From Candidatus Binataceae bacterium (lineage in GTDB: Bacteria; Desulfobacterota; Binatia; Binatales; Binataceae), in the NCBI GenBank assembly GCA_050011435.1, contig JBEKJC010000005.1, positions 45,941-109,940 of the forward strand: a stretch of DNA of 64,000 bases, read 5' to 3'. Positions 32,878 through 61,439 of this stretch are shown piece by piece (within the stretch, counting starts at the first letter, position 1; the number at the start of each line of letters is the position of its first letter). A program made the position numbers and the translations under genes. The notes under the pieces are model-generated. The model ran no database searches. It worked only from the letters and a program-made list of their open reading frames with translations, and was not told the DNA's origin.

Positions 32878-33630
32878 ATGCGCCCCATGTCAGAAGCGAA
32901 AGTCGCATTGATCACGGGCGCCGGCCGCGGTATTGGCCGCGATATCGCGCTCAGGATGGCTCGGGAAGGATACGCGTGCGGACTGATTGCGCGCACCAAG
33001 TCGCAGCTCGACGAGACCGCCGAGCTGATTCGTCAGGCCGGCGGCAAAGCGGTCGTCACGCCGACTGACGTCTCAAAACGCGATCAGGTGGCTGCCGCCG
33101 TCGCCACAGTGGAGCGCGAACTCGGCCCCATCGCGGTGCTCATCAACAACGCCGGCGCCTACCTGCGCAAGCCGTTTGCTGAAATCACGGAAGAGGATTT
33201 CGACTTCCAACTCAAGGTCAACTGCTACGGCCCGTTCTTCTGCACTCAAGCGGTAGTCGCCGGGATGGCCGAGCGTGGCGCCGGCACCATTATCTTCGTG
33301 CTCGGATCGGAGACGCGCGGCGGCCCCGCGCAGTATGCTGCCTACAACGCGTCGAAGGTGGCGCAGCGCGCGGTCGCCGAATCCGTCGCCTACGAATTTA
33401 TGCATCGCGGCGTCCACGCGGTCGCGCTCGACGTCGATGGGGCGGTTGGACTGCCACGCGTGACCGACGCAGCGCACGACGAGGATCCTGATCACTTCGT
33501 CTCGACTGAAGCAATTTGTAGCGAAATCATACACGTAATCAATCAGCCGCGAAATGCGTGGACCTTCGCCATCGATTTGCGGTCCTTCTTCCAATGGCGT
33601 CCGCGGGTCGCGGCCAAGAAAAAGGCCTGA
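32878..33630 (+). CDS. SDR-family oxidoreductase
   Basis: TGAGRGIGRDIA is the cofactor-binding motif, with a YNASK catalytic motif. Confidence 0.85.
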   Translation: MRPMSEAKVALITGAGRGIGRDIALRMAREGYACGLIARTKSQLDETAELIRQAGGKAVVTPTDVSKRDQVAAAVATVERELGPIAVLINNAGAYLRKPFAEITEEDFDFQLKVNCYGPFFCTQAVVAGMAERGAGTIIFVLGSETRGGPAQYAAYNASKVAQRAVAESVAYEFMHRGVHAVALDVDGAVGLPRVTDAAHDEDPDHFVSTEAICSEIIHVINQPRNAWTFAIDLRSFFQWRPRVAAKKKA

Positions 33631-35036
33631 CGTGCCCCGAGTCCGCCCGCGCATCGATACGCTGACGGTGATATGGTCTTCACCGCTGGCGTGCCGTTAT
33701 ACTTCGGGCGCGTCAGTTGTGATTCGACGCCGTCATTCAGGGTCGGGGTGTGGCGCAGCCTGGTAGCGCACACGCTTGGGGTGCGTGTGGTCGCCGGTTC
33801 AAATCCGGCCACCCCGACCAACAATAAATCCTTTGTTTTCAAGTAGTTAGTGCACTGACCGCGCGGTCGACCGCCCGCAGGTTCCGGCGATTGTGCCCAA
33901 TTTTGTGCCCTCCCCCCCTCGTAGCCAGAAATATCCGTGTTTTTTGCGGTGCGCTCCAGGGTCGCGATGGCCTCGCGCCGGGCTTGCACGCGGATGTGAG
34001 CGTAACGGCCAAGCATCCGGTCGCTCACGTGCCCGGCCAGTTGCCGGATGGTCTCGACCGACACGGTCGCGTTCTCCGCAAGACGGGTGACGAACGTGTG
34101 GCGCGCATCGTAGAAGCGGCACGTGACCGCGACCTTTCGCCGTGCGGTTTCAAATGCGCTTTTGTAGCTCCACTGACCCATGGGGCGATTCAGGTCCACG
34201 TCCCAGATCAAAGATTTACGGCTGTTGCCTGCCAAACCCACCCGATGAAACGGGAAGACGTAGTTGTCGGGCCCGGTCTCGGGAAAGCGCCCACGCCAGA
34301 TGGTAAGCGCTGCGCAGGCGCGCCTGGTGAGAGGAATGACGCGGCCGGTGCCACCCTCGGTCTTGGATCGCGACACCACGATCTCGCCTTCGCTGATTGC
34401 GCCATCCGTCCAGCGCAGGGCCAGGTCACACCAATGGAGCGCCCGGCTCTCGGACGGTCGCAGGCCCGCATCCAGCGACAACACGAAAAACGGATACAGG
34501 ACCGGCGACGGGCTTGCGGCAATGGCCGCGAGCAGCTTGTCTTCCTCTTCGAACGAAAGAGCGCGTCCGGCATCGGTCCTTTCTCGGAGAAACCGAACTC
34601 GACCGCCAAGGGGCGACCAGCAGTCGCAGTGCTTGAGAATCTGCCTCAACGTCGCCACTTCGCAATTTATGCTTCGAGCGGAGAGCCGCTCGCCAAGGCG
34701 TTTCCTCTGCAGTGCCGCGATATCGTTGATCGTAATATCCGACACCAGCCTGCTACCGAACTCGCGCACGAGCTTGCGCGAATATTGTTCGTAATAAACT
34801 CTGCCGAGGGGTGTGAGGGCGCTTTTGGATGCGAGCCACTCCTTGGTGGCCAGCGCGAATAGGGGCAAGCGTTCACGTTTGGAGATGCGGTTGTAACCCA
34901 ATTCGAGGTCGCGTCGGCGCGCCCGTTCCGCTTCGCGCGCGACGGTCTTCGAGTTGGTTTTTGCCGAGTCCCGTATGAGCTGCCCTTGGAAGAGGAACTT
35001 GAACCAATACGTCTCGCCTCGTTTATAAACGCTCAT
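33543..35036 (-). CDS. int: tyrosine-type integrase (phage integrase family); the ORF has no stop until 33543 and runs antisense through tRNA-Pro
   Basis: N-terminal SAM-like domain (MSVYKRGETYWFKF...). Catalytic R...HxxR (ARHTFVTRL)...H (LAGHVS)...Y (LGRYAH) around residue 345. RBS GAGAGAGG before ATG 35036. The functional C-terminus is probably well upstream of 33543. Confidence 0.85.
   Translation of the reverse strand: MSVYKRGETYWFKFLFQGQLIRDSAKTNSKTVAREAERARRRDLELGYNRISKRERLPLFALATKEWLASKSALTPLGRVYYEQYSRKLVREFGSRLVSDITINDIAALQRKRLGERLSARSINCEVATLRQILKHCDCWSPLGGRVRFLRERTDAGRALSFEEEDKLLAAIAASPSPVLYPFFVLSLDAGLRPSESRALHWCDLALRWTDGAISEGEIVVSRSKTEGGTGRVIPLTRRACAALTIWRGRFPETGPDNYVFPFHRVGLAGNSRKSLIWDVDLNRPMGQWSYKSAFETARRKVAVTCRFYDARHTFVTRLAENATVSVETIRQLAGHVSDRMLGRYAHIRVQARREAIATLERTAKNTDISGYEGGRAQNWAQSPEPAGGRPRGQCTNYLKTKDLLLVGVAGFEPATTRTPSVCATRLRHTPTLNDGVESQLTRPKYNGTPAVKTISPSAYRCAGGLGARQAFFLAATRGRHWKKDRKSMAKVHAFRG
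33590..33635. repeat. 3' end of the SDR gene; a second copy lies at 48283-48335
   Basis: CGGGTCGCGGCCAAGAAAAAGGCCT is identical over 25 nt, and the flanking TTCCAATGG...GACGT is also similar. Confidence 0.7.
33744..33820 (+). tRNA. tRNA-Pro (anticodon GGG), 77 nt including CCA
   Basis: Folded manually: 7-bp acceptor CGGGGTG/CACCCCG, D-arm GCGC-AGCCTGGTA-GCGC, anticodon arm CACGC-TTGGGGT-GCGTG, T-arm GCCGG-TTCAAAT-CCGGC. Confidence 0.85.
33891..33911. repeat. arm-type-like direct repeat TGTGCCCAATTTTGTGCCCT just inside the left end of the island; a second copy lies at 61086-61106
   Basis: A 20/21-nt exact repeat found near both island ends in the same orientation. It contains an internal GTGCCC-N6-GTGCCC direct repeat. 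Confidence 0.6.
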
Positions 35037-35418: not shown

Positions 35419-36117
35419 TTATATGGCGGATTGGTTCGCGAGGTAGCCGAGCTGGACCAGGCGGACGCCGGCAGCCTCAGCCGAGACGAAGAACGCCTCG
35501 CTGACGCGTTGCTTCAGATCTGTCGCCCTGGTCGATTGGGCCGGCAGGGGTGCAACGTCGATTGTGCCAAGGCAAGCCTCGGCGACCAGCTTCAAACGGC
35601 TGATCGGCATCAGCAGAGCTCCGGCCGCGTAGCTCGCCTGCCATTCCATCCAGTCTACCTTGGGCCGCAGCGCGAGCGTCTCGTCGCCCGTGCAGTGCTG
35701 CTCCTGGCGCCTTGCTATCGCCGCTTTTTGATAAAGCGGATTGTGCACGCAAACGTGCACATATTCGTGGGCCAGCGTGAAACGACAACGATGCACGCCC
35801 CTGGCGTCCTCATGAAGCGCTCGGGCGATTCGGACCTCCGGTTTTCCCGGCGGATCGAAGAAGGTGACGCCCAGCAGCCCCTCCGCGACCTTGGTCAGAT
35901 CGGCGTAGAGGTTGAGTTCCCGGGCGTCGCGCTCGATTAGCTTGATGAGCGCGCCGGTCGGCACCGGCACGGTGATCTGGCCGTAAAGTTCGTTCAGAAA
36001 CTCGAACAGGATACGCTCGCAGCATTCATCGAGGTAGGCTCGCGTATACCAGGGACGGCGGCGGAAGCGCCCGGTTGTGTCGTGTATCCACTCAACCTCG
36101 AGATCTTCCTCGCTCAT
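35419..36117 (-). CDS. ImmA/IrrE-family metallo-endopeptidase
   Basis: TLAHEYVHVCVH is the HEXXH motif. DUF955-like, and paired with an XRE HTH gene. Confidence 0.8.
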   Translation of the reverse strand: MSEEDLEVEWIHDTTGRFRRRPWYTRAYLDECCERILFEFLNELYGQITVPVPTGALIKLIERDARELNLYADLTKVAEGLLGVTFFDPPGKPEVRIARALHEDARGVHRCRFTLAHEYVHVCVHNPLYQKAAIARRQEQHCTGDETLALRPKVDWMEWQASYAAGALLMPISRLKLVAEACLGTIDVAPLPAQSTRATDLKQRVSEAFFVSAEAAGVRLVQLGYLANQSAI

Positions 36118-36440
36118 CGCTTCTTCCCCTTGGCCTTGAGCTCCTTGCGGAAAGCGCGATAGGCGGCGAGTACCTGCTCCTCGCCGGCTTCCTTGGGCTG
36201 GATATCGGACGGCACTTTGCCGGCGACGAAGTAGAGCAGGTCGGCTTCGAGGTCGAGTTCCCTGGCGAACTGCTCGATGAGATAGCCACGCGGCGGATGG
36301 CGCAGATTGTGTTCGAGGTCGTTCAGGTACGGCGCCGATATTGGTCGCCCGTCTTCCATCTTGATGCGCGCCGCGAATTCGCGCTGAGTTAGCTTCGCGC
36401 GCTTGCGTCCCTCCGCAATCAGCTCTCCGAAGGTCTTCAT
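36114..36440 (-). CDS. XRE-family HTH transcriptional regulator (ImmR-like)
   Basis: FGELIAEGRKRAKLTQREFAARI matches a Cro/C1 HTH. Overlaps immA by 4 nt. Confidence 0.8.
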   Translation of the reverse strand: MKTFGELIAEGRKRAKLTQREFAARIKMEDGRPISAPYLNDLEHNLRHPPRGYLIEQFARELDLEADLLYFVAGKVPSDIQPKEAGEEQVLAAYRAFRKELKAKGKKR

Positions 36441-36716
36441 GTCACGTTGTGGTGTTCCGCGCCTCCTGCGATGGATATTATCGTGCCTGCATGTAGATGT
36501 CACGAGCGGAACCGGCCGCACTCCCGGCATTGAAAGAGAAAGCGCACTTTTTCTCGCGCCGCTCTCTCAACCAAACCTGGAGAGCGGCGCGCAGGTTTTG
36601 CGATGCGCGCGTCGCAGCGCTGCAACCGTGACGAGCCTTGCGGCCGGCCCGCCAGGGCCGGCGGCGCGGTTGCCAGCGGAGCGCGCGCCACCAGTTTTGC
36701 ACGGTCTGCGACAGCC

Positions 36717-37154
36717 TCAGGTGACCCACACCACTTTCAGACCGGCGCGATCCGCGGCCTCACGTTGTCGCGCGTCGGCGGTAGCGAAGGGCAGCGGCGC
36801 TCCGGATTCCATCTGGAGTACCAGCGCAGAGGCGATGTGGAGAGCGTCGAGGGTCCTGACCGGCGTCTGCAGGATCAGCCGTTCGGCGCCTTCCAGCACC
36901 CCTGAGCCGAGTTCGACCAGTTCCCAGTAGGAACGGTCGGCGTTCATTCGGGCGACGATCGTGTCGAAATCTGTCCGGGTCACCTCTCCAGCCCGATATC
37001 GGCGGGCAATCGCGGAGACTGCTTCGACTGGTGCGATAACGGACGACAGCAAGCGATAGCGGCGCATCAGCCGCCGGGCATGAGCGGAGCCGGGATCCTC
37101 GACGTAGCGCTTAATCAGAACACTGGTGTCGAAATAAGCTAATGCCTCCGCCAT
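36717..37154 (-). CDS. vapC: PIN-domain toxin VapC
   Basis: YFDTSVLIK (the acidic PIN Asp) and downstream D/E residues. Overlaps the antitoxin gene. Confidence 0.75.
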   Translation of the reverse strand: MAEALAYFDTSVLIKRYVEDPGSAHARRLMRRYRLLSSVIAPVEAVSAIARRYRAGEVTRTDFDTIVARMNADRSYWELVELGSGVLEGAERLILQTPVRTLDALHIASALVLQMESGAPLPFATADARQREAADRAGLKVVWVT

Positions 37155-37447
37155 CAGCGATCCTCCCGCTCGACGCGAACCGTATCCGAGAGTGGGGCTC
37201 CCGAAATCTTGCGGGGTTTCCATAGCGGTAGCGGGCCGGCTTTGGCGGCGCGGCGCACCAGACCCTGATCGTCGAGGCGCCGAAGCAAATCCGCCGTGGT
37301 TTCCGCCTCCGGACCCGCCGGCGCTTCGATCCGTGTAAGCCGGGCGACCGGGCGACCGCGCTCAGTGAGCACTACCTCGGTGCCACGCCGAACGGCCCGT
37401 ATGAGCCGCGAAAAATTTTGATTCGCTTCGCGCAGTCCAACCCGCAT
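37154..37447 (-). CDS. vapB: Phd/YefM-type antitoxin (VapB)
   Basis: MRVGLREANQNFSRLIRAVRRGTEVVLTERGRPVARL fits a Phd/YefM N-domain. Confidence 0.7.
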   Translation of the reverse strand: MRVGLREANQNFSRLIRAVRRGTEVVLTERGRPVARLTRIEAPAGPEAETTADLLRRLDDQGLVRRAAKAGPLPLWKPRKISGAPLSDTVRVEREDR

Positions 37448-37532: not shown

Positions 37533-40253
37533 TCATCGTCGCAACCCGTGGCCTTGGCAGCGGCGGCGGAGGTTTTGCTCCGCGACGATCCGGACGCCGG
37601 CAAGTGAATTCCTTTGCACGTGTTCCAGAGCCGTGGACTTCTCACGGTTCCGGCTAACAACTTGGCGTAGTCGCTCGTGATCGTCGGTATAAATGCTGAT
37701 GCCGTTCCGGGCGCGGCTGACCGACACGTAGAACTGCTTGCGGTTGATGAGCTCGGCGCTCCGCTCCGTATCGATGTTGACGATGACGCGATCGACAGTC
37801 GTACCCTGGCTTGAGTGGGAGGTCGAGGCGTAGCCGTAGTCGATGTGACGCAGACGCTCAATGGTGGCGTGGATTTCGCGGCCGTCCTCGCCCCGAATCC
37901 TTGCCGTGCGTTCATCGATCGCCAAGATAGTTGCGAACTCACCGTTGGCGAGACCCAGCGTGCGTTCTGGTGCGCGGAACTGAATCCGGTCGCCCGGGGC
38001 GAATTTGCGCTGCTCCGTGCGGAGAACCTCGACCCCGGAAAGCCGCTTCGGTGAATAGTCAAAGCGCCTGCCATCGTTCAGTACCACCGAGAGTCGTCCG
38101 GCGTCGGAGTCCACGCGCTCTACCACCGCGTGAGCGCCCTTCTCTATCCCCAACCTCTTGCTGCCGCGCGTGAATCGCACGATGTCGCCTACGTCGTAAT
38201 TTCGAGCTTGTCCGCGCTGACTGCGGGTCAGGTCGCGATTTACGAACACGGTGTGCAACACCTCGCGGCAATCGATCATCCCGCGTTCCTTCAGCGTCTG
38301 CCGGATGACGGCATTGAGTTGGCGCCGTTCCTCGTTGGCCGGACTTACCACTAAGACGCGTTCCCGCGCACCATGGGCTGCGACGTATTCCGCGGCGATC
38401 GACGCGTAGCGCCTGACGGTATCGCCAAGCTCTCGGATTCGACCGAATCGTTCCAGGATGTCGATCGACTCGGCGATCTCTCCGTTCGCCGCGTGGTTAA
38501 CCGCTTTGCGCAGTTCGGGATCGCGCTGGCGGCGAATCACGTCGAGCCGGGCGACCCGCATGCCGGCCTGCTGCATCTGATAGAGCGGCCGTCCCGCCTC
38601 GATCGCATGATGCTGGCGCTGGTCGCCGACGAAGACAATCCGCACAACGCCCGCGTCGCGAGCCTTGCGCAAGAGGCCGTTCACTTGTCCGGTCCCGAGC
38701 AGGCTCGATTCATCGATGATCCAAAGCTCTTTGCCTTGTGCTTCTGGTATTGGATTCTCGATGAGGCTCGCGACGGTGCGGGCAGAGATCCCCGCGTCGC
38801 CGAGCGCCTTAACGGCACGCGTCGTTGGCGCGAATCCTTGCACGGCATAACCGTAATCCTCGGCGAACTCCCGAATCGCCCCAACCGTAGTGGTCTTCGC
38901 CGCTCCCGCGCGTCCCTCGACCGCACTGATCCAGTCGTTCGCGGTCACTGTTAGCTCCGCGACCTCGGCCTGATCGGAGAGCAGCCCTCGTCGTGCAGCC
39001 CACGCGCGAACCTCGTTTGCACTTGCGATACTTTGCGCGCCATCCCGACCAACCAGCATCAGATCTAGATTCTCGCGTTCAAGCGCCACCATCTGCGGTG
39101 TCGTGAAAGCGCCCTGCGGCGATCTGACGGTGGCGCCAATCTGGATCAGATTGGCGGCTCGTTCCCATCCATCCGCAACACTCCGCACCTGCTCAAGGTC
39201 CGCCCTGCCCATCGCATGCTGGAGTGCGGTCGCCTCGATTGCGCGGCGGTCGATCACCGCTTCGCGTTCGGTGTGGTGCGCGACGCTGTATTCGAGCGCA
39301 TCGTCTATCGAGGCCTTACTTCGCTCTGGCACTGGTTGGAGATTCGTGAGCGGCCGGGCCAGTTCGATTCGATATTCGTGTGCGCGCTCGCGCCATTCCG
39401 CCTTGAGGCTCTCTTCGTCGCGACGGTCCTTGGGGCACCTGGTCTGATGGGCGAGGTTCTGTGCGGCAGCGGCACCGTTTAGTCCCTGACGCGCCATCGC
39501 CGCCTCGATGTCCTGGCGCCGGCGCGAAAATGCCATCACCTGCTCGCGAGTGTATCCCGCAAGCTCCCAGCGGCCATCTGCGCCAGTCACATCGATCCGA
39601 TAGCCGAGATCTTGCACTTTAAGCGCAAGCTCCGAACGGTACACGCTGGTCGCGAAACTCTGCGAGCGGTAGATCTCGATCGGATCGAGCCCGCGCCACG
39701 CGCCGTCTGGGCGCCTCGTCATGTTGGCGATCACGACGTGGGTGTGGAGGTGCGGGTCGGGGCCGTAGCCGTCGTCAGCGCCCTGTGAAGGTCGCGCGGC
39801 GATGTGGTCGAAGCGGGCCGCGACGACGTTTCCGGTGATCACCCATTCGTGCCCGCCGTGCTGGCGCGATAACGCATAGCCCTCAAGTTCGGTAAGAGCG
39901 CGACTCACGGCGTTGCGATGCGCCTCCGCGAGCCGCGCGTCGCTGCCAACCAACGCCTGCACGCTTACCGACTTGGGCGCGTTGAAGGTTGCATCCCATC
40001 CGGCGCGGCGTTCGTCGCTGCCCCTGGCGTTTGGAACCAGCACTTCGCCGGTCGCCGGATTAAGCCCGTGCAATACGGCGCGAAAATCATCTGACGAAAC
40101 CTCTTCCGCGAGTCCGAGCGCTTCCCCTCCTCGACCGCACCACTGTCCGGCAACCCGGTGCTGCTCGGTGTAGTAGTCGTCCTGGGAGTATTTTTCCTGG
40201 TAATAGGTCTCCGCCTGTTTGGCGCTGAGCGCGCCTTTCGACATGACCAGCAT
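37533..40253 (-). CDS. MobF-family conjugative relaxase (TrwC/TraI-like relaxase plus RecD-like helicase)
   Basis: Relaxase N-domain (AETYYQEKY...DYY, with HTHVVIAN as the His triad). C-terminal AAA_30/UvrD-like helicase (GRAGAAKTT, ViVFVGDQRQ). Confidence 0.9.
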   Translation of the reverse strand: MLVMSKGALSAKQAETYYQEKYSQDDYYTEQHRVAGQWCGRGGEALGLAEEVSSDDFRAVLHGLNPATGEVLVPNARGSDERRAGWDATFNAPKSVSVQALVGSDARLAEAHRNAVSRALTELEGYALSRQHGGHEWVITGNVVAARFDHIAARPSQGADDGYGPDPHLHTHVVIANMTRRPDGAWRGLDPIEIYRSQSFATSVYRSELALKVQDLGYRIDVTGADGRWELAGYTREQVMAFSRRRQDIEAAMARQGLNGAAAAQNLAHQTRCPKDRRDEESLKAEWRERAHEYRIELARPLTNLQPVPERSKASIDDALEYSVAHHTEREAVIDRRAIEATALQHAMGRADLEQVRSVADGWERAANLIQIGATVRSPQGAFTTPQMVALERENLDLMLVGRDGAQSIASANEVRAWAARRGLLSDQAEVAELTVTANDWISAVEGRAGAAKTTTVGAIREFAEDYGYAVQGFAPTTRAVKALGDAGISARTVASLIENPIPEAQGKELWIIDESSLLGTGQVNGLLRKARDAGVVRIVFVGDQRQHHAIEAGRPLYQMQQAGMRVARLDVIRRQRDPELRKAVNHAANGEIAESIDILERFGRIRELGDTVRRYASIAAEYVAAHGARERVLVVSPANEERRQLNAVIRQTLKERGMIDCREVLHTVFVNRDLTRSQRGQARNYDVGDIVRFTRGSKRLGIEKGAHAVVERVDSDAGRLSVVLNDGRRFDYSPKRLSGVEVLRTEQRKFAPGDRIQFRAPERTLGLANGEFATILAIDERTARIRGEDGREIHATIERLRHIDYGYASTSHSSQGTTVDRVIVNIDTERSAELINRKQFYVSVSRARNGISIYTDDHERLRQVVSRNREKSTALEHVQRNSLAGVRIVAEQNLRRRCQGHGLRR

Positions 40254-40256
40254 CGC

Positions 40257-42083
40257 TCATGCCCGAAGGCGCCTGCTCGACGGCGCCTGCTGACTGGTGG
40301 GAGCCTTGGTTAGCCGCTCGCCCGGTAACCGGAGATTGCCGGCCGGCATCGACGCTGCGCTTTGATCGCTGGACTGCGCCGCCATCACCCGGCGCATGAA
40401 ACCCGGATGGCGCTTGATCGGGGCGAGATACGGAATCGTGACCCGCGCCCGGTGATGGCCGGTGACGCAGAGATAGCCCTCGAACGGTTGCAGCATCTGA
40501 ATCTCGCTGCCAAGCACGGAGCTCTCGATGATGCGCTGCGGATGAACGGAGAAGCTGTCGCGGTGCTCCTTCAGGCCGGTGTTGCTTCCGATCTGCGAGC
40601 GGCTGATTTCGCGCTCGCCGATCTGCGCGCTCGACCAGCGTGCGGTCTCGGCCTCGCCGGTGCGCAGGATTAGCTTGGTCGCCGGCGCCGCGGCGAGCGT
40701 CGCGGTCTGCTCGTGGCCGTAGATCGCGCGCAGCTGGGTGATCGCCTGAAACCCCAGCACCGCGCACAGTCCGCGCTTGCGCCCGCGCACGACCAACGCT
40801 TCGAACTGGCTCTGGCGTTTCAGTACCGGCAACTCGTCGGCGACGATCCAGACCTGCTCGCGCCGCTCCTGTTCTGCCATCAGCCGGCGCACGATGCAGT
40901 CGAGCCACACGCTCTGCAGCGGCAACGCCGCGTCGCGCGAGTCCTCGGTCGAAGTCAAAAACAGCCATCCCTCCCGCGCCTGCGCCCATTCGAGCGCGCT
41001 CCACGCCCACTCGGTCCCGCTCGGCAGATAGCGGAGCGAGTTGGTCGCGTTGAAGGCCGTCGCGACGATTCCCGCCCCCTGATCGTGCGCACCGGGATCG
41101 ATGAGCGCTTCTGCCGGCGTGCCCCGCAGCGCCTCCTTGAGTTTCGCTCTTGGCAGGGCGAGCAGCTTCGGGATGTCGCCGGGCTCGCGCGACCTGACGC
41201 TCTCAAGCAGCCCGACGATCAGCGTCCGCGCCGATTGCCGAAAGAAGAAGTCGGCGCCGCTCTGGCTGAACATGTTGGACGGGTCAGGGATGAGCGCCGC
41301 CGCCAGCGCCTCGGCGTCCATCGCCTCGCTGCCGGGCTTGAGCTCCCACCACGGCGACCATGCCGGGCAGCGCGCATCGAGCGGGTTCAGGATCAGGTCG
41401 CGGCGCGCGTGCCGGAAGAACTCGGGGAGGTATTCGCACTCCGGGTCGAGCACCACGGCGGTTTCGCCGCGCGCCTCGATCTGCCGTAGCATGCGGCGGA
41501 TGGCGGTGGATTTTCCAGAGCCGGGCGCACCCACGAACATGAAGTGCTGGGGCTCCAACGTCCGCTGGATACGAATGCCGCCGATCTCGACGCCGTTGCC
41601 CTGAAGCTCGTGACGCAGGCGGCGCTGCGGGACAACGTCGGTCCCGCGCACATAGCGGTCGTCGGTATGGTCGCGTCTGGGCCTAAAGAGGATCAGGCCG
41701 ATCCCGACGACGGTAATCGCCGTGACCAGAAAGCCCCACGGCGCATAGTGCCAGAACCAGCCGGGGAACGAACCGCCGGAGTAGTACTTGTAGCAGAGGA
41801 ACGGGTACATGCTCGGGATGGTGTAGCGCCCGCCGCGGTAGGGCACCGAGCCGAACGGCAAAGGGATGATCTCGCTGAAGAACCAGGTCAGAATCCAGAG
41901 TCGGAAGTGACGTTGAGCGGCCGCGCCGCCATAGTAACCGGTCCAGTACCAGACCAGACCGAACGTCAGGGCCGCCCACACCAGCGTCATCACGACCGCG
42001 ACTCGCGCCGCCATCTGCGTCCACAGCGCGAGCGATGCGCCGTCCGACCGCCATCTGATCGCCCGGTAAACACCCGCGCTCAT
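40257..42083 (-). CDS. type IV coupling protein (TraD/TrwB/VirD4 family)
   Basis: N-terminal TM helices. Walker A FVGAPGSGKST. TraD/TraG-like core. Confidence 0.9.
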   Translation of the reverse strand: MSAGVYRAIRWRSDGASLALWTQMAARVAVVMTLVWAALTFGLVWYWTGYYGGAAAQRHFRLWILTWFFSEIIPLPFGSVPYRGGRYTIPSMYPFLCYKYYSGGSFPGWFWHYAPWGFLVTAITVVGIGLILFRPRRDHTDDRYVRGTDVVPQRRLRHELQGNGVEIGGIRIQRTLEPQHFMFVGAPGSGKSTAIRRMLRQIEARGETAVVLDPECEYLPEFFRHARRDLILNPLDARCPAWSPWWELKPGSEAMDAEALAAALIPDPSNMFSQSGADFFFRQSARTLIVGLLESVRSREPGDIPKLLALPRAKLKEALRGTPAEALIDPGAHDQGAGIVATAFNATNSLRYLPSGTEWAWSALEWAQAREGWLFLTSTEDSRDAALPLQSVWLDCIVRRLMAEQERREQVWIVADELPVLKRQSQFEALVVRGRKRGLCAVLGFQAITQLRAIYGHEQTATLAAAPATKLILRTGEAETARWSSAQIGEREISRSQIGSNTGLKEHRDSFSVHPQRIIESSVLGSEIQMLQPFEGYLCVTGHHRARVTIPYLAPIKRHPGFMRRVMAAQSSDQSAASMPAGNLRLPGERLTKAPTSQQAPSSRRLRA

Positions 42084-42487
42084 TGCTTCGCCTCTTGCGC
42101 GCCGTCGAGGTGCGCGAGGTACTGACGAGCGGTCTGCTCCGAGGCTTCGATGATTTCGTCCACCATGTTTGCCCCCACGGTCTGGTCGAGCGAATGGAAA
42201 AGCGCCGAGCGGCTCTTGACCACTTCGAACAGGAGCTGGCCGTAACGCTCGGCCTCCGCCTGCTCCAGGCGCTCGAACCCCTTCCTGAGCGCCTCCAGTT
42301 TTCCGCCGAGCGCAGCGAGGGACGCGGTATCGGCGCCGCCCTGACCGGCGAGATCGAAGTGCTGTGCGATCAGCGATTGAAGCAGGGTGGTCGGCGTTGC
42401 GTTCATGCTCGCCGCGTGGTTCTCGACTTGCGCGGCATATTTCTCCGGGAGCCGGATCGTGTAGGTTTTCTTCGTCTCATCCGCCAT
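42080..42487 (-). CDS. ribbon-helix-helix relaxosome accessory protein (MobC/TraY-like)
   Basis: KKTYTIRLPEKYAAQVENHAASMNATPTTLLQSLI fits an RHH fold. Sits immediately upstream of T4CP and the relaxase, with the repeat region just 5'. Confidence 0.55.
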   Translation of the reverse strand: MADETKKTYTIRLPEKYAAQVENHAASMNATPTTLLQSLIAQHFDLAGQGGADTASLAALGGKLEALRKGFERLEQAEAERYGQLLFEVVKSRSALFHSLDQTVGANMVDEIIEASEQTARQYLAHLDGAQEAKQ

Positions 42488-42505
42488 GTTGCTCAACCTC
42501 CTGCC

Positions 42506-42664
42506 TGCAAGCAGCGCCGAATCGGATGCTTGCATTGAGAAATCAAGGGGTTTTTCATTCCACCGCTGGCTCTCTGACTCTTTGCAAGCACGTCACGAAT
42601 CCGCCTGCTTGCATAATGAAATCGCGGGATTTCCCGCTTTCTGCGCCCGCCGTGCTGCAAGCAG
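42506..42664. promoter_or_regulatory. candidate oriT / mob promoter region with reiterated inverted repeats
   Basis: Two tandem units of TGCAAGCA-N13/15-TGCTTGCAT-(t/a)a(g/t)aAAATC-GGG, plus a further CTGCAAGCAG. They lie immediately upstream of the RHH-T4CP-relaxase operon. Confidence 0.45.
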
Positions 42665-42878
42665 CCTTCATCAAGGGATGAGTGACGTGTCATACATTCC
42701 CCACGTGCGAGGTCCTTAGCCGAGCACGTCCCCGGATGCCTAACACCTCGCCTGAAGCTCGGGCGGTGGCAGAACGGCGTTGCCGCGAAGCTGGATGCTC
42801 TCGGCAATATGTGCCGGGCCCCTCGAGAACTGACTGCCACAGATGACGGGCGCATCGTCGCCGACTCAGAAAATCCCG

Positions 42879-43202
42879 CTAGTACGGGAGCAGGTAGTTG
42901 AGGAGCTTGACCGCTTCGATGGCAGCCGCCATCCCGAGCCCGGCCTTAAACAGCCGACGGCCGAGTTCGCAGTTGCCCAGGATTCCGAAAATGAGGAATG
43001 CGACAGTCAATGCGAAGGCCAGGAACGCGGGCGCAATCGCTCCGCTCAGAAGCGCCGCGATCGTGTTGAGCGGCTGGTCCCAGGGAAGCGCTCCCGGCTG
43101 AACGGGTCCCGCCACAGAGAGCGCTGGCCGAGCGATCACGAGCACCACTGCCAAAGTGCCTTCACCGACATGCCTTGAAAATGGTTTCATCGGTTTTCTC
43201 AC
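42879..43202 (-). CDS. TrbC/VirB2-family conjugative pilin
   Basis: ~105 aa with a leader followed by two hydrophobic helices (AIAPAFLAFALTVAFLIFGILGN...GMAAAIEAVKLLNYLL). Confidence 0.65.
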   Translation of the reverse strand: MRKPMKPFSRHVGEGTLAVVLVIARPALSVAGPVQPGALPWDQPLNTIAALLSGAIAPAFLAFALTVAFLIFGILGNCELGRRLFKAGLGMAAAIEAVKLLNYLLPY

Positions 43203-44182
43203 CGCGCCCAGATTGTGCAGCCGACAAATTGGTCCATCTTGCCCGCCTGCATGTATGCAGTTTTAATAGCAGCCAATCAAAAGCAACGCAAGCAACCCAC
43301 GTGGGATTTTGCGGCGCGTGTCGGCCTTTCGTTCGTTGCTGGACACGCTAGATTTGGTGCACCGATCAATGCGACCGCGGTAAATCTTGCAAGAGCGCCT
43401 GTGGCTATCTTGGCCTGCCCTCCCGAAAACGCCCGCGACTTGAAGTTGAGTCCGTCACTGAGAGAAGACGGACGAATGAAAGGTCGCGAGGCGCTCCCGT
43501 CTTGCGACTCCTGACCGTTGACCCTGGAATGATCACGACCGGACGTGAATGCAAGGGCCCCGCAGACAGCGGAATTGAGATTAGGCCCTCCGTCGCGCTC
43601 GATATGGACCCCTCACGGGCGAGCCCATCCATGATGATTTTAGACTATCGCAGCCTCGTCGCGCCGTACGCTGAGATGTTCTCTGCGCAGCGCGCAGCCA
43701 TGCGATAGACTTCGGGATTTCAAACTGGCGCGGAGGTTCGTCAACGCGATGAATTTGAAAGACAGAAGTAACAAAAGCTCCAGGAAGTATCCCTGTGCGG
43801 GGGCGGTCAGGCTGGCTCTGCGAAGCCGAACAGTTTTTCCTGCGCTCGCCACTCCTGCATCTCGACGCGTTCGGATTCCGTCCAACAGCATTCCGAAAGA
43901 GTTAAAACTGCTGTTTCGTGAACCGATATTCAACCGTCAATCTGATCTGACGAGTCTCCGCGCACCGCTGTGACGCGCTGATTTCAATACAGTCGGCGCC
44001 TTCGGGGTCGTTGCCGACCTTAAATGATCATGGACCAGGAGGTTTATCTGGCAAGTGTCCTCCAGGAGCAGCATTCTGTAGAACGCCTGATAGAAGTGGC
44101 CTCGCAATTTTGAACAGTGCGATAAGTGGAAACTCCGGGCCACAAGTCTGGCCGAAGCAGGCTGGGCAAGAAGGAGTTTGCG

Positions 44183-44500
44183 ATGGTCAAGAAATCCGGG
44201 CGGCGGACACGCCGCACGCACACGGCGGAGTTCAAGGCGCGCGTAGCGTTAGCGGCGTTGCGCGAGGACCAGACGCTGGCCGAGCTGGCTGCGCAGTTTG
44301 AGATTCATCCCAACCAGATTACGGACTGGAAGCGGCAATTGCTCGAACATGCGGCCGAGGTTTTCGGGACCACGCAGCCGGCGCCCGTTGTTCTGGCGCC
44401 GCTACATGCCAAGATCGGGCAGCAGGCGCTGGAGCTGGATTTTTTAGCACGCGCGCTCGCAAAGCGGGCGGGCTGGGCGCCAAGCTATGATCGACCGTAA
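44183..44500 (+). CDS. IS3-family transposase OrfA (HTH)
   Basis: [53 protein letters not shown]. Confidence 0.85.
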
Positions 44501-45317
44501 GCACCGTTTGTCGGTAACGCGCCAAGCCAGCCTGCTGGGCCTCAGCCGGGGGTCGGTGTATTACCTGCCGCAACCCACCAGCGCCGCCGATTTGGCGCTG
44601 ATGCGGCGGCTGGATGAGCTGCATCTGGAGCATCCCTTCATGGGCGCGCGGATGCTGCGCCGCCAGCTCCTGGCCGAGGGCATCCGGGTCGGCCGGCGTC
44701 ACGTACGGACGCTCATGCGGCGCATGGGCATGGAGGCTTTGTGTCCGCAGCCTGGCACCAGCCAGCGCCAGCCGGACCATAAGATCTATCCCTATCTGCT
44801 ACGCCAGTTAGCCATCACCCACGCGAATCAGGTCTGGGCGCTCGACACGACGTACATCCCCATGGCGCGCGGGTTTGTTTACCTCACCGCCGTAGTGGAT
44901 GTAGCCAGCCGCCTGGTGCTGGCGCACAAGGTGGCCATCACGCTGGAGGCGTGCCATGCCAGGGAGATTATCGAACAGGCCTTTGCGTGCTTTGGAGTGC
45001 CCGCGATCGTCAACACCGATCAGGGCAGCCAGTTCACGGCGGAGGAGTTCACCCAGGCCGTGCGCGCTCGCGGCTGCCAGCTCTCCATGGACGGGCGCGG
45101 CGCATGGCGGGACAACGTGTTCATCGAACGCCTGTGGCGCAGCGTGAAATACGAGTGCGTGTACCTCAAGGCCTATGACGGCGTGAGCGCGGCGCGCGCC
45201 GACATCGGCCACTATATGGACTGGTTCAACACCGACCGGGCGCATTCGCGGCTCAATGGCGCCACGCCCCAACAGGCCTATCTGGCCTTGGCGGCAACAC
45301 TGGAGGAGGCCGCCTAG
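44487..45317 (+). CDS. IS3-family transposase OrfB (DDE integrase core)
   Basis: WALDTTYI...[10 protein letters not shown] and [12 protein letters not shown] (rve domain). It overlaps orfA and is probably expressed as an OrfAB fusion by a -1 frameshift. Confidence 0.85.
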
Positions 45318-48344: not shown

Positions 48345-49985
48345 CTAACCACCCGCCGATCGCGTGTAAAAGACCCAGTCTTTTATGACCCGTGCCTGAT
48401 GGTATGGAGCCCACGCTCGACGGAAGCCCTCATCCCGCAAGAGAAGCTGCAGGATGTCAAAGCTGCGCCGCAGTTCAAAGGCATAACGGTCGTCGGCTGT
48501 TCGCACAGCAACCACCGCCGGCCTATATCGCTCGAGGTCTTCCTCAACCTGACGGGTCCAGAGTTGCCTAATCTCTTCCGCACGCTTGCGTTCGGCCAGC
48601 TTGCCCAGCGAAAGTCCGACAATTACCGGCACCATCCATTGTGCTGCCGTTCGGGATGACCATTGCGCATTTATCAATGAAACGGTCGGAAGAACAACAT
48701 CAAAGCCCCAGGCTGCGATTGCCAGGAAAGACCGTCCAGTCGCCAATTCAGCGGCGGTACGCGGGAACGGCTGAGCCATAAAATTGGAGCGAGTCCTGAG
48801 ACTCGACGTGAACCACATGGGCAACGTCACAATAACGCCTTGAAAGAGCAGCGCCATCACCAGGACCGCCGCGGCAATTCGTGGGACTTGATGCATTCGG
48901 GCCAGCGACGGCCAAATAGCCAGTGCCAGCAATACCAGAATCATCGACATCAAGATCAATGCTGGAATATTGTGATAATCCCAGCCTTTGTGCTGTGCGA
49001 CGGAGCATATTGACAGAAGTATAGCCGCAAGCGCCAAATAGCGTAAGAAAGAGCGAACTGTTTCGTCTATTTGAGCGAGTTCCCACACCACTGAGGCGGC
49101 TAGCACAAGGCCCAGGGGTGGCCAAAACGCCGCAAGAACAACAATCATCGGTTGGTTGAGAAACTTATAGGTATCGACCGCTAACCTCGCCACAGCGAAC
49201 CATTGCGGAAATACCAAAACGACTGTGCCCAGATATAAGATTGAAATGATGCTGAAGATGATGGCGTCGCGCCCAAAGAAAATGCGCCAACTCTGTTGCT
49301 CTATGCCGCGAGCTATGAGCATTCCGATCGGCAGCAGAACGAAGTAAGGTTTGATTAGAAACCCAACCGCCGCAATAGCGGCCGAACTTACGGAAGAGAA
49401 ACCCGGCAATTCCGAATCGCCATTCTCCTTCAGGGCAAACCGAAACAACCATGGACAAAGTAGAATCATCGCCAGATGTTCTCGCTGTCCAAATTGATAA
49501 CCCGGAAGGAAACATAACAGCACAGTATAAGCCAGCACGGCGATCGCCCCGGCAACTCGCCTCGCTCCAAACAGGTTGAGTAGCGAGCGGGAAACCTGCG
49601 CAATTGACCACAAAATCAGCAGGCAGACCCAAACGCTGAACACTACGTAAGTATCTAGTCCAGTCAGCGTAGAAAATGCGGCGCTCGGTGAAAGCAAGAT
49701 ATAAATAAGCGGCACATTGGGATCGAACACATCGTAATAAATATGTCCGCCGGCGATTAGTCGCTCTGTAGCTAAAAGAAACCAAGCGTTGTCGTGGTTT
49801 GGAACAATAGAAAAGGCATGTAGCCAGAAAGCTGCGAAAACAGTCACAGCTGTTTCACTTATAAGTAAAACCCGCTGAGCGAACGACAATGCAGGCACGG
49901 GCCACGGCGGATCCGAACCTGCCTGTCCCGGCAATGCACTACGAATGTGCTGGTTCACGACTTCCCGCGTACAGTTCGATAGCAC
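48345..49985 (-). CDS. large polytopic membrane protein, GT-C-like (ArnT/PMT-type glycosyltransferase candidate)
   Basis: 546 aa with >10 predicted TM segments. Lower-GC region. The assignment to the GT-C fold is inferred from architecture only. Confidence 0.5.
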   Translation of the reverse strand: MLSNCTREVVNQHIRSALPGQAGSDPPWPVPALSFAQRVLLISETAVTVFAAFWLHAFSIVPNHDNAWFLLATERLIAGGHIYYDVFDPNVPLIYILLSPSAAFSTLTGLDTYVVFSVWVCLLILWSIAQVSRSLLNLFGARRVAGAIAVLAYTVLLCFLPGYQFGQREHLAMILLCPWLFRFALKENGDSELPGFSSVSSAAIAAVGFLIKPYFVLLPIGMLIARGIEQQSWRIFFGRDAIIFSIISILYLGTVVLVFPQWFAVARLAVDTYKFLNQPMIVVLAAFWPPLGLVLAASVVWELAQIDETVRSFLRYLALAAILLSICSVAQHKGWDYHNIPALILMSMILVLLALAIWPSLARMHQVPRIAAAVLVMALLFQGVIVTLPMWFTSSLRTRSNFMAQPFPRTAAELATGRSFLAIAAWGFDVVLPTVSLINAQWSSRTAAQWMVPVIVGLSLGKLAERKRAEEIRQLWTRQVEEDLERYRPAVVAVRTADDRYAFELRRSFDILQLLLRDEGFRRAWAPYHQARVIKDWVFYTRSAGG

Positions 49986-61237: not shown

Positions 61238-61282
61238 TTTGGGGTGCGTGTGGTCGCCGGTTCAAATCCGGCCACCCCGACC
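61238..61282 (+). repeat. 45-nt 3' fragment of tRNA-Pro (anticodon loop to CCA): right attachment-site direct repeat
   Basis: TTGGGGTGCGTGTGGTCGCCGGTTCAAATCCGGCCACCCCGACCA is identical to 33776-33820. Confidence 0.85.
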
Positions 61283-61439
61283 ATTTTTCCTCACTCGTTA
61301 GGCGCTCTGCCTGTTTCGCAGACGCCCAGCGCCGCGCGCCGCCGTTGAGCGTGATTGTTTCAAACCTTGGCGCAATCGCGGTCGTCTCTCTTGATGTGCT
61401 GGTGGCGGCAACCTGGCACCAGCTCTCTCGCGGGTGCGA

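What the first reader, a model, noticed from the sequence alone, without database searches (positions are those of the whole stretch)
42506..42664. Candidate oriT with reiterated inverted repeats upstream of the RHH-T4CP-relaxase operon
Two tandem units, each built of TGCAAGCA-N13-15-TGCTTGCAT followed by a conserved AAATC-GGG tail, plus a third CTGCAAGCAG. They sit in the 5' leader of the mobilisation operon. This is the usual layout for a MobF oriT that overlaps the mob promoter and is bound by the RHH accessory protein.
Basis: partly seen in the sequence, partly recalled or inferred. Interest (0 to 1): 0.55.

Follow-up and report, generated by a model that had tools for sequence, protein, structure and literature searches.

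The report
Transfer origin of a mobilizable island
The flagged repeats are real and conserved, and most likely are docking sites for a small DNA-binding helper protein inside the transfer origin of a mobile island in a soil bacterium (Binatota), with the predicted DNA cutting site just outside the flagged interval; it is an ordinary design in an unstudied lineage.

Summary
TGCAAGCA/TGCTTGCA occurs five times in 42506-42663, as two inverted-repeat units plus one single copy, and only twice more in the other 64 kb. The mob operon is on the minus strand: a 135-aa RHH-like protein, a TrwB-type coupling protein and a TrwC/MobF relaxase.

About 70 related loci, mostly Binataceae MAGs and soil metagenomes, keep this architecture. 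The best-conserved block is not the flagged repeats. It is 42653-42692: box 3, a 5-bp hairpin with a compensatory change, and an invariant GAGTGACGTGTC. This block sits on the antisense strand and reads away from the operon, as IR2-nic does in IncW plasmids. I predict nic at about 42691^42692 on the + strand.

The 8-bp boxes track the RHH protein. Loci with a different predicted DNA-reading strand have different repeats in the same layout, while the nic block is unchanged. The boxes are therefore most likely TrwA-like accessory or operator sites.

No promoter was found, and no nicking, binding or transfer has been tested. The element is a roughly 27.5-kb island between tRNA-Pro att repeats, and no mating-pore genes were detected in it.

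Verdict: a new member of a known kind (MOBF-type oriT), of modest interest.

The parts
37533..40253 (-). MobF/TrwC-type relaxase-helicase, 906 aa
   Evidence: Pfam TrwC 2.5e-82 plus AAA_30. NCBIfam MobF 1.6e-76, above its cutoff. The N-terminal 300 aa match the TrwC structure 1omh at E=1e-48, with the YY..DDYY tyrosines and the HLHTH histidine motif aligned.
40257..42083 (-). TrwB/TraD-type coupling protein (T4CP), 608 aa
   Evidence: Pfam TrwB_AAD_bind 4.9e-90 and TraG-D_C. Its start overlaps the RHH stop by 4 nt.
42080..42487 (-). 135-aa RHH-like relaxosome accessory protein. The strand KTYTIRLP and two helices are followed by a long helical hairpin.
   Evidence: Translation. No Pfam or NCBIfam hit. 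AlphaFold model with pLDDT 81. All top Foldseek PDB hits are RHH proteins (AmrZ, PutA, Arc, CopG, ParG, NikA) with TM 0.7-0.88 normalised to the target, but E is only 0.25 or weaker. 86 homologue clusters, mostly unnamed, a few labelled Binataceae/Binatus.
42497..42502 (-). Ribosome-binding site AGGAGG, 9 nt before the ATG at 42487
   Evidence: Read directly from the sequence. Conserved as RGAGG in relatives.
42506..42534 (.). Unit B inverted repeat, TGCAAGCA-N13-TGCTTGCA. The proximal box lies 3 nt from the RBS. Predicted RHH operator or accessory site.
   Evidence: The RBS-proximal box is nearly universal in relatives. The distal arm decays without compensation.
42538..42555 (+). IHF-like site, or -35-like TTGATT on the minus strand.
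   Evidence: The invariant columns AATCA..TT in alignment A2 fall on the specified positions of WATCAANNNNTTR (consensus from my own knowledge). The R7K IR3 reads GAAAATCAACGACTTA, and PMC4814116 names IR3 as the IHF site. No -10 element follows it.
42583..42613 (.). Unit A inverted repeat, TGCAAGCA-N15-TGCTTGCA. Its spacer holds CACGTCAC (42589-96), an inverted copy of the nic-core octamer.
   Evidence: (I5, I24). The core TTCGTGACGTG is conserved across relatives. Three of the 8 pairs change on both sides between lineages.
42655..42664 (+). Box 3, CTGCAAGCAG, a single copy abutting the nic hairpin. It is the most conserved of the boxes.
   Evidence: Mean column conservation is 0.98 over 42655-64. 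The columns are invariant in A2. The box is replaced in loci with a divergent RHH.
42668..42681 (+). Hairpin TCATC-AAGG-GATGA lying 5' of the predicted nic (IR2 analogue)
   Evidence: 99.6% of cells are paired. The fifth pair is T-A in 35 sequences and C-G in 12, a compensatory change.
42680..42692 (+). Invariant nic core GAGTGACGTGTCA. Predicted nic at 42691^42692, plausible range 42689-42696.
   Evidence: Invariant in 47 aligned loci, with variable sequence immediately 3'. It is kept even where the RHH is only 30-35% identical. It has the same strand, orientation and distance from the accessory gene as GTATTGTCT/ATAG in R7K. It shares TGTC/AT with Granulicella, Blastomonas, Xanthomonas and R7K. 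It is unique in the window.
42703..42729 (+). Hairpin IR0, ACGTGC-loop-GCACGT, 10-11 nt 3' of the nic core. In relatives it is a GCGAAGC-type DNA mini-hairpin.
   Evidence: The spacing is constant. The stems are ACGCGC/GCGCGT in 16 loci and ACGTGC/GCACGT in 14, a compensatory change. The loop is either GAA or a 15-19 nt insert. The same element occurs in Granulicella, Blastomonas and Sphingopyxis plasmids. GCGNAGC is described as an exceptionally stable DNA mini-hairpin in PMC13037366.
42879..43202 (-). 107-aa TrbC/VirB2 pilin-like ORF upstream of the oriT, with a terminator-like hairpin over its stop codon
   Evidence: Pfam TrbC 9.3e-5, below the cutoff, for the window copy. 1.1e-12, above the cutoff, for the homologue in L001. 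Terminator-like hairpin at 42889..42874.

Best explanation
Window 42488-42730 is the origin of transfer and control region of the Dtr (mob) operon of an integrated element. It is built like the oriT of IncW plasmid R388/R7K.

On the + strand, reading away from the operon, a small hairpin (42668-81) is followed by an invariant GAGTGACGTGTC. The TrwC-like relaxase is predicted to bind there and cut at about 42691^42692. The operon would then enter the recipient last.

One box abuts the nic hairpin, two form unit A, and two form unit B next to the ribosome-binding site.

The arms of a unit sit 21-23 bp apart, centre to centre, which is two helical turns. This suits a dimer of dimers. Binding next to nic would help assemble the relaxosome, and binding at the RBS-proximal unit would autoregulate the operon. 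An IHF-like site (42541-53) may bend the DNA between the units.

Shown: the sequence architecture, its conservation, the covariation, and the protein homologies. Inferred: nicking, the exact nic position, RHH binding, autoregulation and the IHF role.
For: - Operon identity. The operon is RHH-like, TrwB-type T4CP and TrwC/MobF relaxase, with the catalytic Tyr and His motifs aligned to TrwC.
- Non-random boxes. Five of 7 octamers in 64 kb fall within 158 bp.
- Conservation. 47 distinct upstream regions from MAGs and metagenomes keep the architecture, and conservation peaks at 42653-42692.
- Hairpin covariation. The nic hairpin has a compensatory T-A to C-G change, 35 versus 12 sequences.
- Geometry. 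In R7K the nic GTATTGTCT/ATAG is on the strand antisense to trwA, about 155 bp upstream, with IR2 between nic and trwA. The window has the same arrangement, about 200 bp upstream. PMC4814116 states that TrwC binds IR2 plus nic with 8 nt between them, that TrwA binds IR4 and that IHF binds IR3.
- Reiterated boxes in the model system. R7K has GGGACCACA three times plus an inverted copy between nic and trwA.
- Family resemblance of the nic region. A hairpin followed by ..GTGTC/AT.. occurs in MOBF plasmids of Granulicella, Blastomonas, Sphingopyxis, Xanthomonas and R7K.
- A natural swap. In loci where the RHH is 30-35% identical (strand SISTRVP) and the relaxase domain is still 73% identical, the nic block and IR0 are kept. 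The TGCWWGCA boxes are absent (0 of 12 loci) and are replaced by two units of CGTAAACA/GTCTACAG. All 48 loci with the strand T[YFS]TIR have at least one TGCWWGCA box. L016 (strand SFNIRVP) has GCTAGC boxes.
Against: - No experiment supports nicking, binding or transfer.
- The similarity of the nic core to R388 is short (TGTC/AT). The 8-nt rule, motif anchoring and the MAFFT alignment place nic at 42689/90, 42691/92 and 42695/96 respectively.
- The RHH assignment rests on fold hits with weak E-values. There is no Pfam hit, and the hhalign comparison with TrwA is not significant.
- The link between box sequence and RHH strand rests on only about three independent lineage changes.
- Units A and B decay in distant lineages without full compensation.
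- No promoter was found.
- A second conserved hairpin (IR0) 3' of nic, and an inverted copy of GTGACGTG inside unit A, are not explained by the R388 model.
- The island shows no mating-pore genes, and an IS3 element sits 1.2 kb away, so this copy may be inactive.
Confidence: 0.72

Rival explanations
1. The flagged repeats are only a transcriptional operator array for autoregulation of the mob operon. They play no part in DNA processing, and the functional oriT is elsewhere in the island.
For: The proximal box lies 3 nt from the RBS. RHH proteins are classic repressors, and the top fold hits are Arc, CopG and AmrZ. Units A and B are less conserved than the nic block.
Against: One box directly abuts the hairpin and invariant block, and it is the best-conserved box. 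The MOBF-like nic architecture lies within 30 nt of it. No second copy of the nic block exists in the window. In R388 the TrwA sites serve both roles.
Confidence: 0.1
2. The nick is on the minus (sense) strand, 3' of hairpin IR0 (42729-42703 read on the minus strand). Transfer would then run in the opposite direction, with the mob operon entering first.
For: IR0 is a conserved hairpin with covariation and constant spacing to the invariant block. On the minus strand the order is hairpin, about 10 nt, then the invariant block.
Against: The nucleotides between IR0 and the invariant block are variable, whereas relaxases read the bases between the hairpin and nic. The GAA loop that makes the stable GCGAAGC mini-hairpin is on the + strand, and the minus strand would carry a TTC loop. 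R7K has the opposite polarity relative to trwA.
Confidence: 0.1
3. The inverted repeats act as RNA structures in the 5' leader of the mob mRNA, giving translational or stability control, rather than as protein-binding DNA.
For: Unit B lies just upstream of the RBS. The 246-nt region folds better than shuffled sequence, z = -2.6, though it was folded as DNA.
Against: The same octamer recurs in both orientations and also as a single copy. Unit B shows no compensatory changes, and in some lineages one arm is deleted. There is no Rfam match. The transcription start is unknown.
Confidence: 0.03
4. This copy is a non-functional relic. The sequence is a real oriT by descent, but this island can no longer transfer.
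For: No VirB4 or other mating-pore genes were detected by Pfam in the island ORFs tested. An IS3-family element lies at 44126-45317. The pilin-like ORF scores below the Pfam cutoff here.
Against: The RHH, T4CP and relaxase ORFs are intact and translationally coupled. All conserved cis elements are intact. Compact relatives with the same gene set lie next to tRNA genes in other genomes, which fits a working mobilizable-element family.
Confidence: 0.15

Closest known systems
oriT and trwABC Dtr module of IncW plasmids R388/R7K (MOBF11)
   Same: The gene order is RHH accessory, T4CP, relaxase. The oriT lies immediately upstream. The nic region is on the strand antisense to the accessory gene, with a hairpin 5' of nic. 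A short box is reiterated in inverted and direct copies between nic and the start codon. A GAAAATCAA..TT block resembles the IR3/IHF site.
   Different: The relaxase domain is only about 39% identical. The RHH shows no significant sequence similarity to TrwA. The nic core is GAGTGACGTGTC/A rather than GCGTATTGTCT/A. The hairpin has 5 bp rather than 7, with about 10 nt rather than 8 to the predicted nic. There is an extra conserved hairpin 3' of nic. The element is integrated in a chromosome and shows no T4SS.
MOBF conjugative plasmids of Granulicella tundricola (pACIX903/905), Blastomonas pBSY18_2 and Sphingopyxis pMC4
   Same: These carry the closest plasmid relaxases, 38-42% identical, with the same three-gene operon. 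Their upstream regions carry hairpin, (G)AGTGTC/AT or GGTGTGT/AT, about 10-17 nt, then a GCGNAGC mini-hairpin on the same strand.
   Different: No DNA similarity is detectable by BLAST. Their repeats differ. They are plasmids, most with an MPF_T system. To my knowledge none of these oriTs has been characterised experimentally.
F-like TraY/TraM and R64 NikA relaxosome accessory proteins
   Same: These are small RHH-type proteins that bind reiterated sites in oriT, and some also regulate the adjacent promoter. NikA appears among the fold hits.
   Different: They belong to different relaxase subfamilies (MOBF12, MOBP), with different gene order and different site sequences.

Membership tests
MOBF (TrwC/TraI-type) Dtr module with cognate oriT | Relaxase with a TrwC-type HUH domain, paired catalytic tyrosines, a histidine triad and a C-terminal SF1B helicase | tested here: met
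   Pfam TrwC 2.5e-82 plus AAA_30. NCBIfam MobF is above its cutoff. The alignment to TrwC 1omh has E=1e-48, with the YY/DDYY and HLHTH motifs conserved.
MOBF (TrwC/TraI-type) Dtr module with cognate oriT | Operon order accessory protein, T4CP, relaxase, with the oriT in the upstream intergenic region | tested here: met
   The same order is annotated in R7K and in the Granulicella, Blastomonas, Xanthomonas and Sphingopyxis plasmids.
MOBF (TrwC/TraI-type) Dtr module with cognate oriT | A nic site 3' of an inverted repeat on the strand that leaves the Dtr genes to enter last, with about 8 nt between the proximal arm and nic | tested here: inconclusive
   The hairpin 42668-81 and the invariant core lie on the expected strand and in the expected orientation. 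The distance to the TGTC/A junction is 10 nt rather than 8, and nic itself is not mapped.
MOBF (TrwC/TraI-type) Dtr module with cognate oriT | Sequence similarity of the nic core to a mapped MOBF nic (R388 GTATTGTCT/ATAG) | tested here: inconclusive
   Only TGTC/AT and a G/T-rich 5' side are shared. Granulicella and Blastomonas sequences bridge the two, but their nic sites are not mapped either.
MOBF (TrwC/TraI-type) Dtr module with cognate oriT | Reiterated accessory-protein binding sites between nic and the accessory gene | tested here: met
   At the sequence level only. There are five TGCWWGCA boxes. R7K has GGGACCACA three times plus an inverted copy. Box sequence co-varies with the RHH strand. 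Binding was not tested.
MOBF (TrwC/TraI-type) Dtr module with cognate oriT | Site- and strand-specific nicking, and mobilisation in cis | not testable with these tools
   This needs relaxase cleavage assays and mating assays.
Ribbon-helix-helix (Arc/MetJ/CopG) superfamily, for the 135-aa protein | An N-terminal strand-helix-helix of about 45 residues that pairs into a dimer with an antiparallel ribbon | tested here: inconclusive
   In the AlphaFold monomer, residues 6-50 superpose on RHH proteins with TM 0.7-0.88 normalised to the target and probability 0.9 or more, and RHH proteins dominate the top 50 hits. The best E-value is 0.25. DSSP assigns residues 1-14 no secondary structure, so the predicted strand is not modelled as a strand. 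The profile hit to CopG has E=0.47. There is no Pfam hit. The dimer was not modelled.
Integrative mobilizable element (IME) | An integrase with flanking att repeats at a tRNA gene | tested here: met
   The Phage_integrase ORF is at 35036..33543. tRNA-Pro is at 33744-33820. Its 3' 45 nt are repeated exactly at 61239-61283.
Integrative mobilizable element (IME) | Own oriT and relaxase (with or without T4CP) but no mating-pore (MPF) genes | tested here: inconclusive
   None of the larger island ORFs scanned shows a VirB4, VirB6, VirB9 or VirB10 family. The only hint is a VirB2-like ORF. Three large ORFs have no Pfam hit, and not every ORF was scanned. Compact relatives of about 9.5 kb also lack MPF genes.

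The most novel reading that the evidence does not exclude
This may be the oriT of a previously undescribed family of compact, tRNA-integrating mobilizable elements in Binatota. They carry a MobF relaxase, their own coupling protein, an unannotated RHH family and an orphan VirB2-like pilin gene. A 2017 review stated that no known canonical IME encoded a MobF relaxase (PMC5704250).

The oriT may also carry a functional element that has not been described. This is a GCGNAGC-type ultra-stable DNA mini-hairpin placed 10-11 nt 3' of nic on the transferred strand. It is shared with MOBF plasmids of Acidobacteriota and Sphingomonadales. It could protect or mark the 5' end of the T-strand, or take part in termination.
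Probability: 0.3. Interest if true: 0.5.

Novelty: new member of a known kind. Interest (0 to 1): 0.35.

Why it matters
Conjugation in candidate phyla such as Binatota is essentially uncharacterised. This locus gives a concrete, testable oriT: a predicted nic within ±4 nt, named accessory boxes, and a natural RHH/box swap that predicts specificity. It could be used to build transfer tools or to trace gene flow in soil communities. It also points to a conserved DNA mini-hairpin next to nic in a MOBF subgroup. The overall design repeats the well-known R388 model, so it would not surprise a conjugation specialist.

Tried and rejected
- Plasmid searches. Megablast and blastn of the region against 72,556 plasmids gave no match. 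A tblastn search with the RHH against plasmids also gave no match. The relaxase domain finds only plasmid relatives of 42% identity or less.
- Protein families. Pfam and NCBIfam gave nothing for the RHH. The hhalign comparison of the RHH profile with R7K TrwA was not significant, E=0.1. The profile search against PDB sequences gave only a marginal CopG hit, E=0.47.
- Promoter. The sigma-70 scan of 42300-43300 found none. I considered TTGATT (42541-46, minus strand) as a -35 element and set it aside. The -10 position is not conserved, and an 11-nt deletion in several lineages removes it.
- Rfam. A permissive E-value scan gave no match.
- Short T-strand fold. Folding 42640-42740 as DNA gave z = 0.09, so free energy alone does not support the small hairpins. 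The support for them comes from covariation.
- IR0 alignment. MAFFT misaligns the short-loop and long-loop forms of IR0, so I analysed it with a custom script instead.
- Distant-lineage unit A. I considered GTAAACG..CGTGTAC as a register-shifted compensated repeat. At 6 of 8 matches this could be chance, so I treat it as weak.
- A second nic block in the window. None was found.

Full report
**Observation.** The sequence and the repeat finder confirm the pattern.
- TGCAAGCA is at 42506-13, 42583-90 and 42656-63.
- TGCTTGCA is at 42527-34 and 42606-13. This gives two inverted-repeat units with 13-nt and 15-nt spacers.
- A 27-nt tail is 78% identical between the two units.
- CTGCAAGCAGC is an exact 11-nt direct repeat 150 bp apart.
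- Five of the seven octamers in the 64-kb window lie in these 158 bp. Shuffles give 2.5 for the whole window. The cluster has a probability of about 3e-11.

**Genes.** The operon is on the minus strand.
- A 135-aa protein (42487..42080) has a KTYTIRLP strand followed by two helices.
- A 608-aa TrwB/TraD-type coupling protein (42083..40257) follows.
- A 906-aa TrwC/MobF relaxase-helicase (40253..37533) follows that.
- The relaxase domain aligns to the TrwC structure at E=1e-48, with the tyrosine pairs and the histidine motif in place.
- The small protein has no Pfam or NCBIfam hit. Its AlphaFold model (pLDDT 81) finds almost only RHH proteins in the PDB, namely AmrZ, PutA, Arc, CopG, ParG and NikA. 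The target-normalised TM scores are 0.7-0.88, but the E-values are weak.
- Upstream on the same strand is a VirB2/TrbC-like 107-aa ORF with a terminator-like hairpin over its stop codon.

**Wider context.**
- The 3' 45 nt of tRNA-Pro (33744-33820) are repeated exactly at 61239-61283.
- Between these repeats lie a tyrosine integrase, an IrrE-like peptidase, a PIN protein, the mob operon, an IS3-family element and glycosyltransferase cargo.
- To the left of the tRNA are panB, panC and coaX.
- No mating-pore genes were detected. This is a chromosomal island of about 27.5 kb that looks mobilizable rather than self-transmissible.
- RHH homologues come almost only from soil metagenomes and from MAGs labelled Binataceae, Binatus or 'delta proteobacterium'.
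- In one MAG the element is a compact module of about 9.5 kb next to tRNA-Arg: pilin-like gene, oriT, RHH, T4CP, MobF, small ORFs, integrase. In another MAG it lies next to tRNA-SeC.

**Comparative anatomy.** I aligned 47 distinct upstream regions. On the window's + strand, reading away from the operon, the order is:
1. RBS.
2. Unit B (42506-34).
3. A conserved GAAAATCAAGGGTTT block (42538-55).
4. Unit A (42583-613), with a conserved core CACGTCACGAA.
5. A partly conserved AAATCGCGGG tail.
6. Box 3, CTGCAAGCAG (42655-64).
7. A 5-bp hairpin, TCATC-AAGG-GATGA (42668-81).
8. An invariant GAGTGACGTGTC(A) (42680-92).
9. 10-11 variable nucleotides.
10. Hairpin IR0 (42703-29).

Conservation peaks at 42653-42692, which is at and beyond the right edge of the flagged interval.

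The small hairpin is paired in 99.6% of cells. Its fifth pair is T-A in 35 sequences and C-G in 12.

IR0 always starts 10-11 nt after GTGTC. Its stem is ACGCGC/GCGCGT in 16 loci and ACGTGC/GCACGT in 14. Its loop is either GAA or a 15-19-nt insert. A fixed stem with a variable loop size argues for a hairpin in single-stranded DNA rather than a site for a dimeric protein on duplex DNA.

**Where is nic?** In IncW R7K, which I treat as R388-like, trwA starts at locus position 2572. The mapped R388-type nic GTATTGTCT/ATAG is on the opposite strand at 2411-2423, and IR2 lies between nic and trwA. PMC4814116 states that TrwC binds IR2 plus nic with eight nucleotides between the proximal arm and nic, that TrwA binds IR4 and that IHF binds IR3.

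The window has the same polarity and a similar distance, about 200 bp against about 155 bp. The table lists the upstream regions of the closest plasmid relaxases, read on the same strand.

| Source | Sequence around the predicted or mapped nic |
|---|---|
| R7K | GGTGCGTATTGTCT/ATAG |
| Xanthomonas | GGGTGCGTATGGTGTATGG |
| Granulicella pACIX905 | AGGGATGGAGTGTCATCC..ATGTGCGCAGCACAT |
| Granulicella pACIX903 | AGGGATGGAGTGTCTCC..GGTGCGAAGCGCC |
| Blastomonas | GCGTGAGGTGTGTATCC..GATGCGAAGCATC |
| Sphingopyxis | as Blastomonas, but with GCGTAGC |
| Window | GGGATGAGTGACGTGTCATAC..ACGTGCGAGG..GCACGT |

Anchoring on TGTC/AT puts nic at 42691^42692. The 8-nt rule gives 42689/90, and the MAFFT alignment to R7K gives 42695/96. 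Conservation that ends abruptly after GTGTC(A) fits a relaxase that reads the 5' side of nic.

**Who binds the boxes?** Two observations point to the RHH protein.
- The layout copies R7K, where GGGACCACA occurs three times plus once inverted between nic and trwA.
- There is a natural swap. In loci such as L020 and L059 the RHH is 30-35% identical and the T4CP 57%, while the relaxase domain is still 73% identical.
  - These loci keep the nic block, the small hairpin and IR0. They have no TGCWWGCA box (0 of 12 loci).
  - Instead they carry two tandem units of CGTAAACA/GTCTACAG, and the proximal unit again abuts the RBS.
- All 48 loci whose RHH strand reads T[YFS]TIR have at least one TGCWWGCA box. 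L016, with strand SFNIRVP, has GCTAGC boxes.
- So the nic block tracks the relaxase, and the boxes track the predicted DNA-reading strand of the RHH.
- This is correlation over about three lineage changes. It is suggestive, not proof.
- Each box is a near-palindrome (TGC-AA-GCA), which suits one RHH dimer. The arm spacing of 21-23 bp puts two boxes on the same face of the helix, which suits a dimer of dimers. The long C-terminal helical hairpin in the model could mediate that association, as proposed for TrwA (my own knowledge).

**Other elements.**
- The invariant columns AATCA..TT coincide with the specified positions of the IHF consensus WATCAANNNNTTR (my own knowledge). R7K's IR3/IHF site reads GAAAATCAACGACTTA.
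- GCGNAGC is a documented ultra-stable DNA mini-hairpin (PMC13037366). Its GAA loop is on the predicted transferred strand.
- Unexplained: an inverted copy of the nic-core octamer lies inside unit A (42589-96 against 42682-89). It is conserved in the main group. A DNA fold pairs 42589-42613 with 42656-42689 (z=-2.6).

**Mechanism proposed.**
1. RHH dimers occupy box 3 and unit A next to the nic hairpin. Possibly with an IHF-type bend, they help melt the DNA and present the + strand.
2. The relaxase binds the hairpin plus GAGTGACGTGTC. It cuts near 42691/92 and stays attached to the 5' end.
3. The element's own coupling protein delivers the complex to a helper T4SS.
4. RHH bound at unit B, next to the RBS, limits expression of the operon.

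All four steps are inferred.

**Rivals.** I also weighed four alternatives:
- an operator-only role for the boxes
- a nick on the other strand beside IR0
- an RNA leader structure
- a dead relic

Each is listed in the Rival explanations section with its evidence. None fits the conservation pattern as well.

**Comparison and novelty.** This works like, and is built like, the R388/R7K oriT-trwABC module. The sequences are far apart.
- The relaxase domain is about 39% identical to the IncW one.
- The RHH has no detectable similarity to TrwA.
- The region has no DNA match among 72,556 plasmids.

It is a new member of a known kind. Three minor points go beyond that.
- The MobF relaxase sits in a mobilizable island. 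A 2017 review knew of none among canonical IMEs.
- A mini-hairpin lies next to nic and is shared with Acidobacteriota and Sphingomonadales plasmids.
- The natural RHH/box swap predicts binding specificity.

Noticed in passing
window 33744-33820 and 61239-61283: The 3' 45 nt of tRNA-Pro(ggg) are repeated exactly 27.5 kb downstream. These look like attL/attR of an integrated island that holds the integrase, the mob module, an IS3 element and glycosyltransferase cargo. panB, panC and coaX lie just outside.
   Followed up: partly
window 33543-35036 (-): The 497-aa integrase ORF runs across the tRNA-Pro gene on the opposite strand. Its Pfam domain ends at residue 349, so the last ~150 codons overlap the tRNA/att site or are spurious.
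   Followed up: no
window 42879-43202 (-): An orphan TrbC/VirB2 pilin-like ORF lies directly upstream of the oriT, with no other mating-pore genes nearby. The same gene is kept in compact relatives (L001, L073). Other relatives have a DUF2274 gene at that position instead (L009, L075).
   Followed up: partly
window 42703-42729; L009 3771-3795; L072, L076, L077, L079: A GCGNAGC-type DNA mini-hairpin sits 10-17 nt 3' of the predicted nic, on the predicted transferred strand. It is shared by Binatia elements and by MOBF plasmids of Granulicella, Blastomonas and Sphingopyxis. Cupriavidus and Denitratisoma have a 10-bp hairpin there instead.
   Followed up: partly
window 42589-42596 vs 42682-42689: The nic-core octamer GTGACGTG recurs in inverted orientation inside the spacer of unit A and is conserved across relatives. 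Together with the adjacent boxes it forms a long imperfect inverted repeat (42589-42613 / 42656-42689). Its function is unknown.
   Followed up: partly
L020, L021, L058-L064 (RHH start about 4001-4007 in L020/L059): A natural module swap. The RHH is 30-35% identical and the T4CP 57%, but the relaxase domain is 73% identical and the nic block is identical. The upstream boxes are replaced by CGTAAACA/GTCTACAG units.
   Followed up: yes
L065, about 150-200 nt upstream of the RHH start: A 26-nt tandem duplication (CGATTTTATTATGCAAGCAGCCAACA) adds one more TGCAAGCA box, so box copy number varies between close relatives.
   Followed up: no
window 44126-45317 (+): An IS3-family insertion sequence, with orfA at 44126-44500 and an rve-domain orfB at 44487-45317, lies 1.2 kb beyond the pilin-like gene. 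It may separate the mob module from the cargo or from a lost segment.
   Followed up: no
window 35419-37223 (-): An IrrE/M78 peptidase-like ORF and a PIN-domain ORF lie between the integrase and the relaxase. An M78 peptidase and an HTH gene recur in relatives (L009, L073). This may be a regulatory switch for excision or transfer.
   Followed up: no
window 48345-49985, 54054-56279 and 56276-58447 (-): Three large ORFs (546, 741 and 723 aa) inside the island have no Pfam hit.
   Followed up: no
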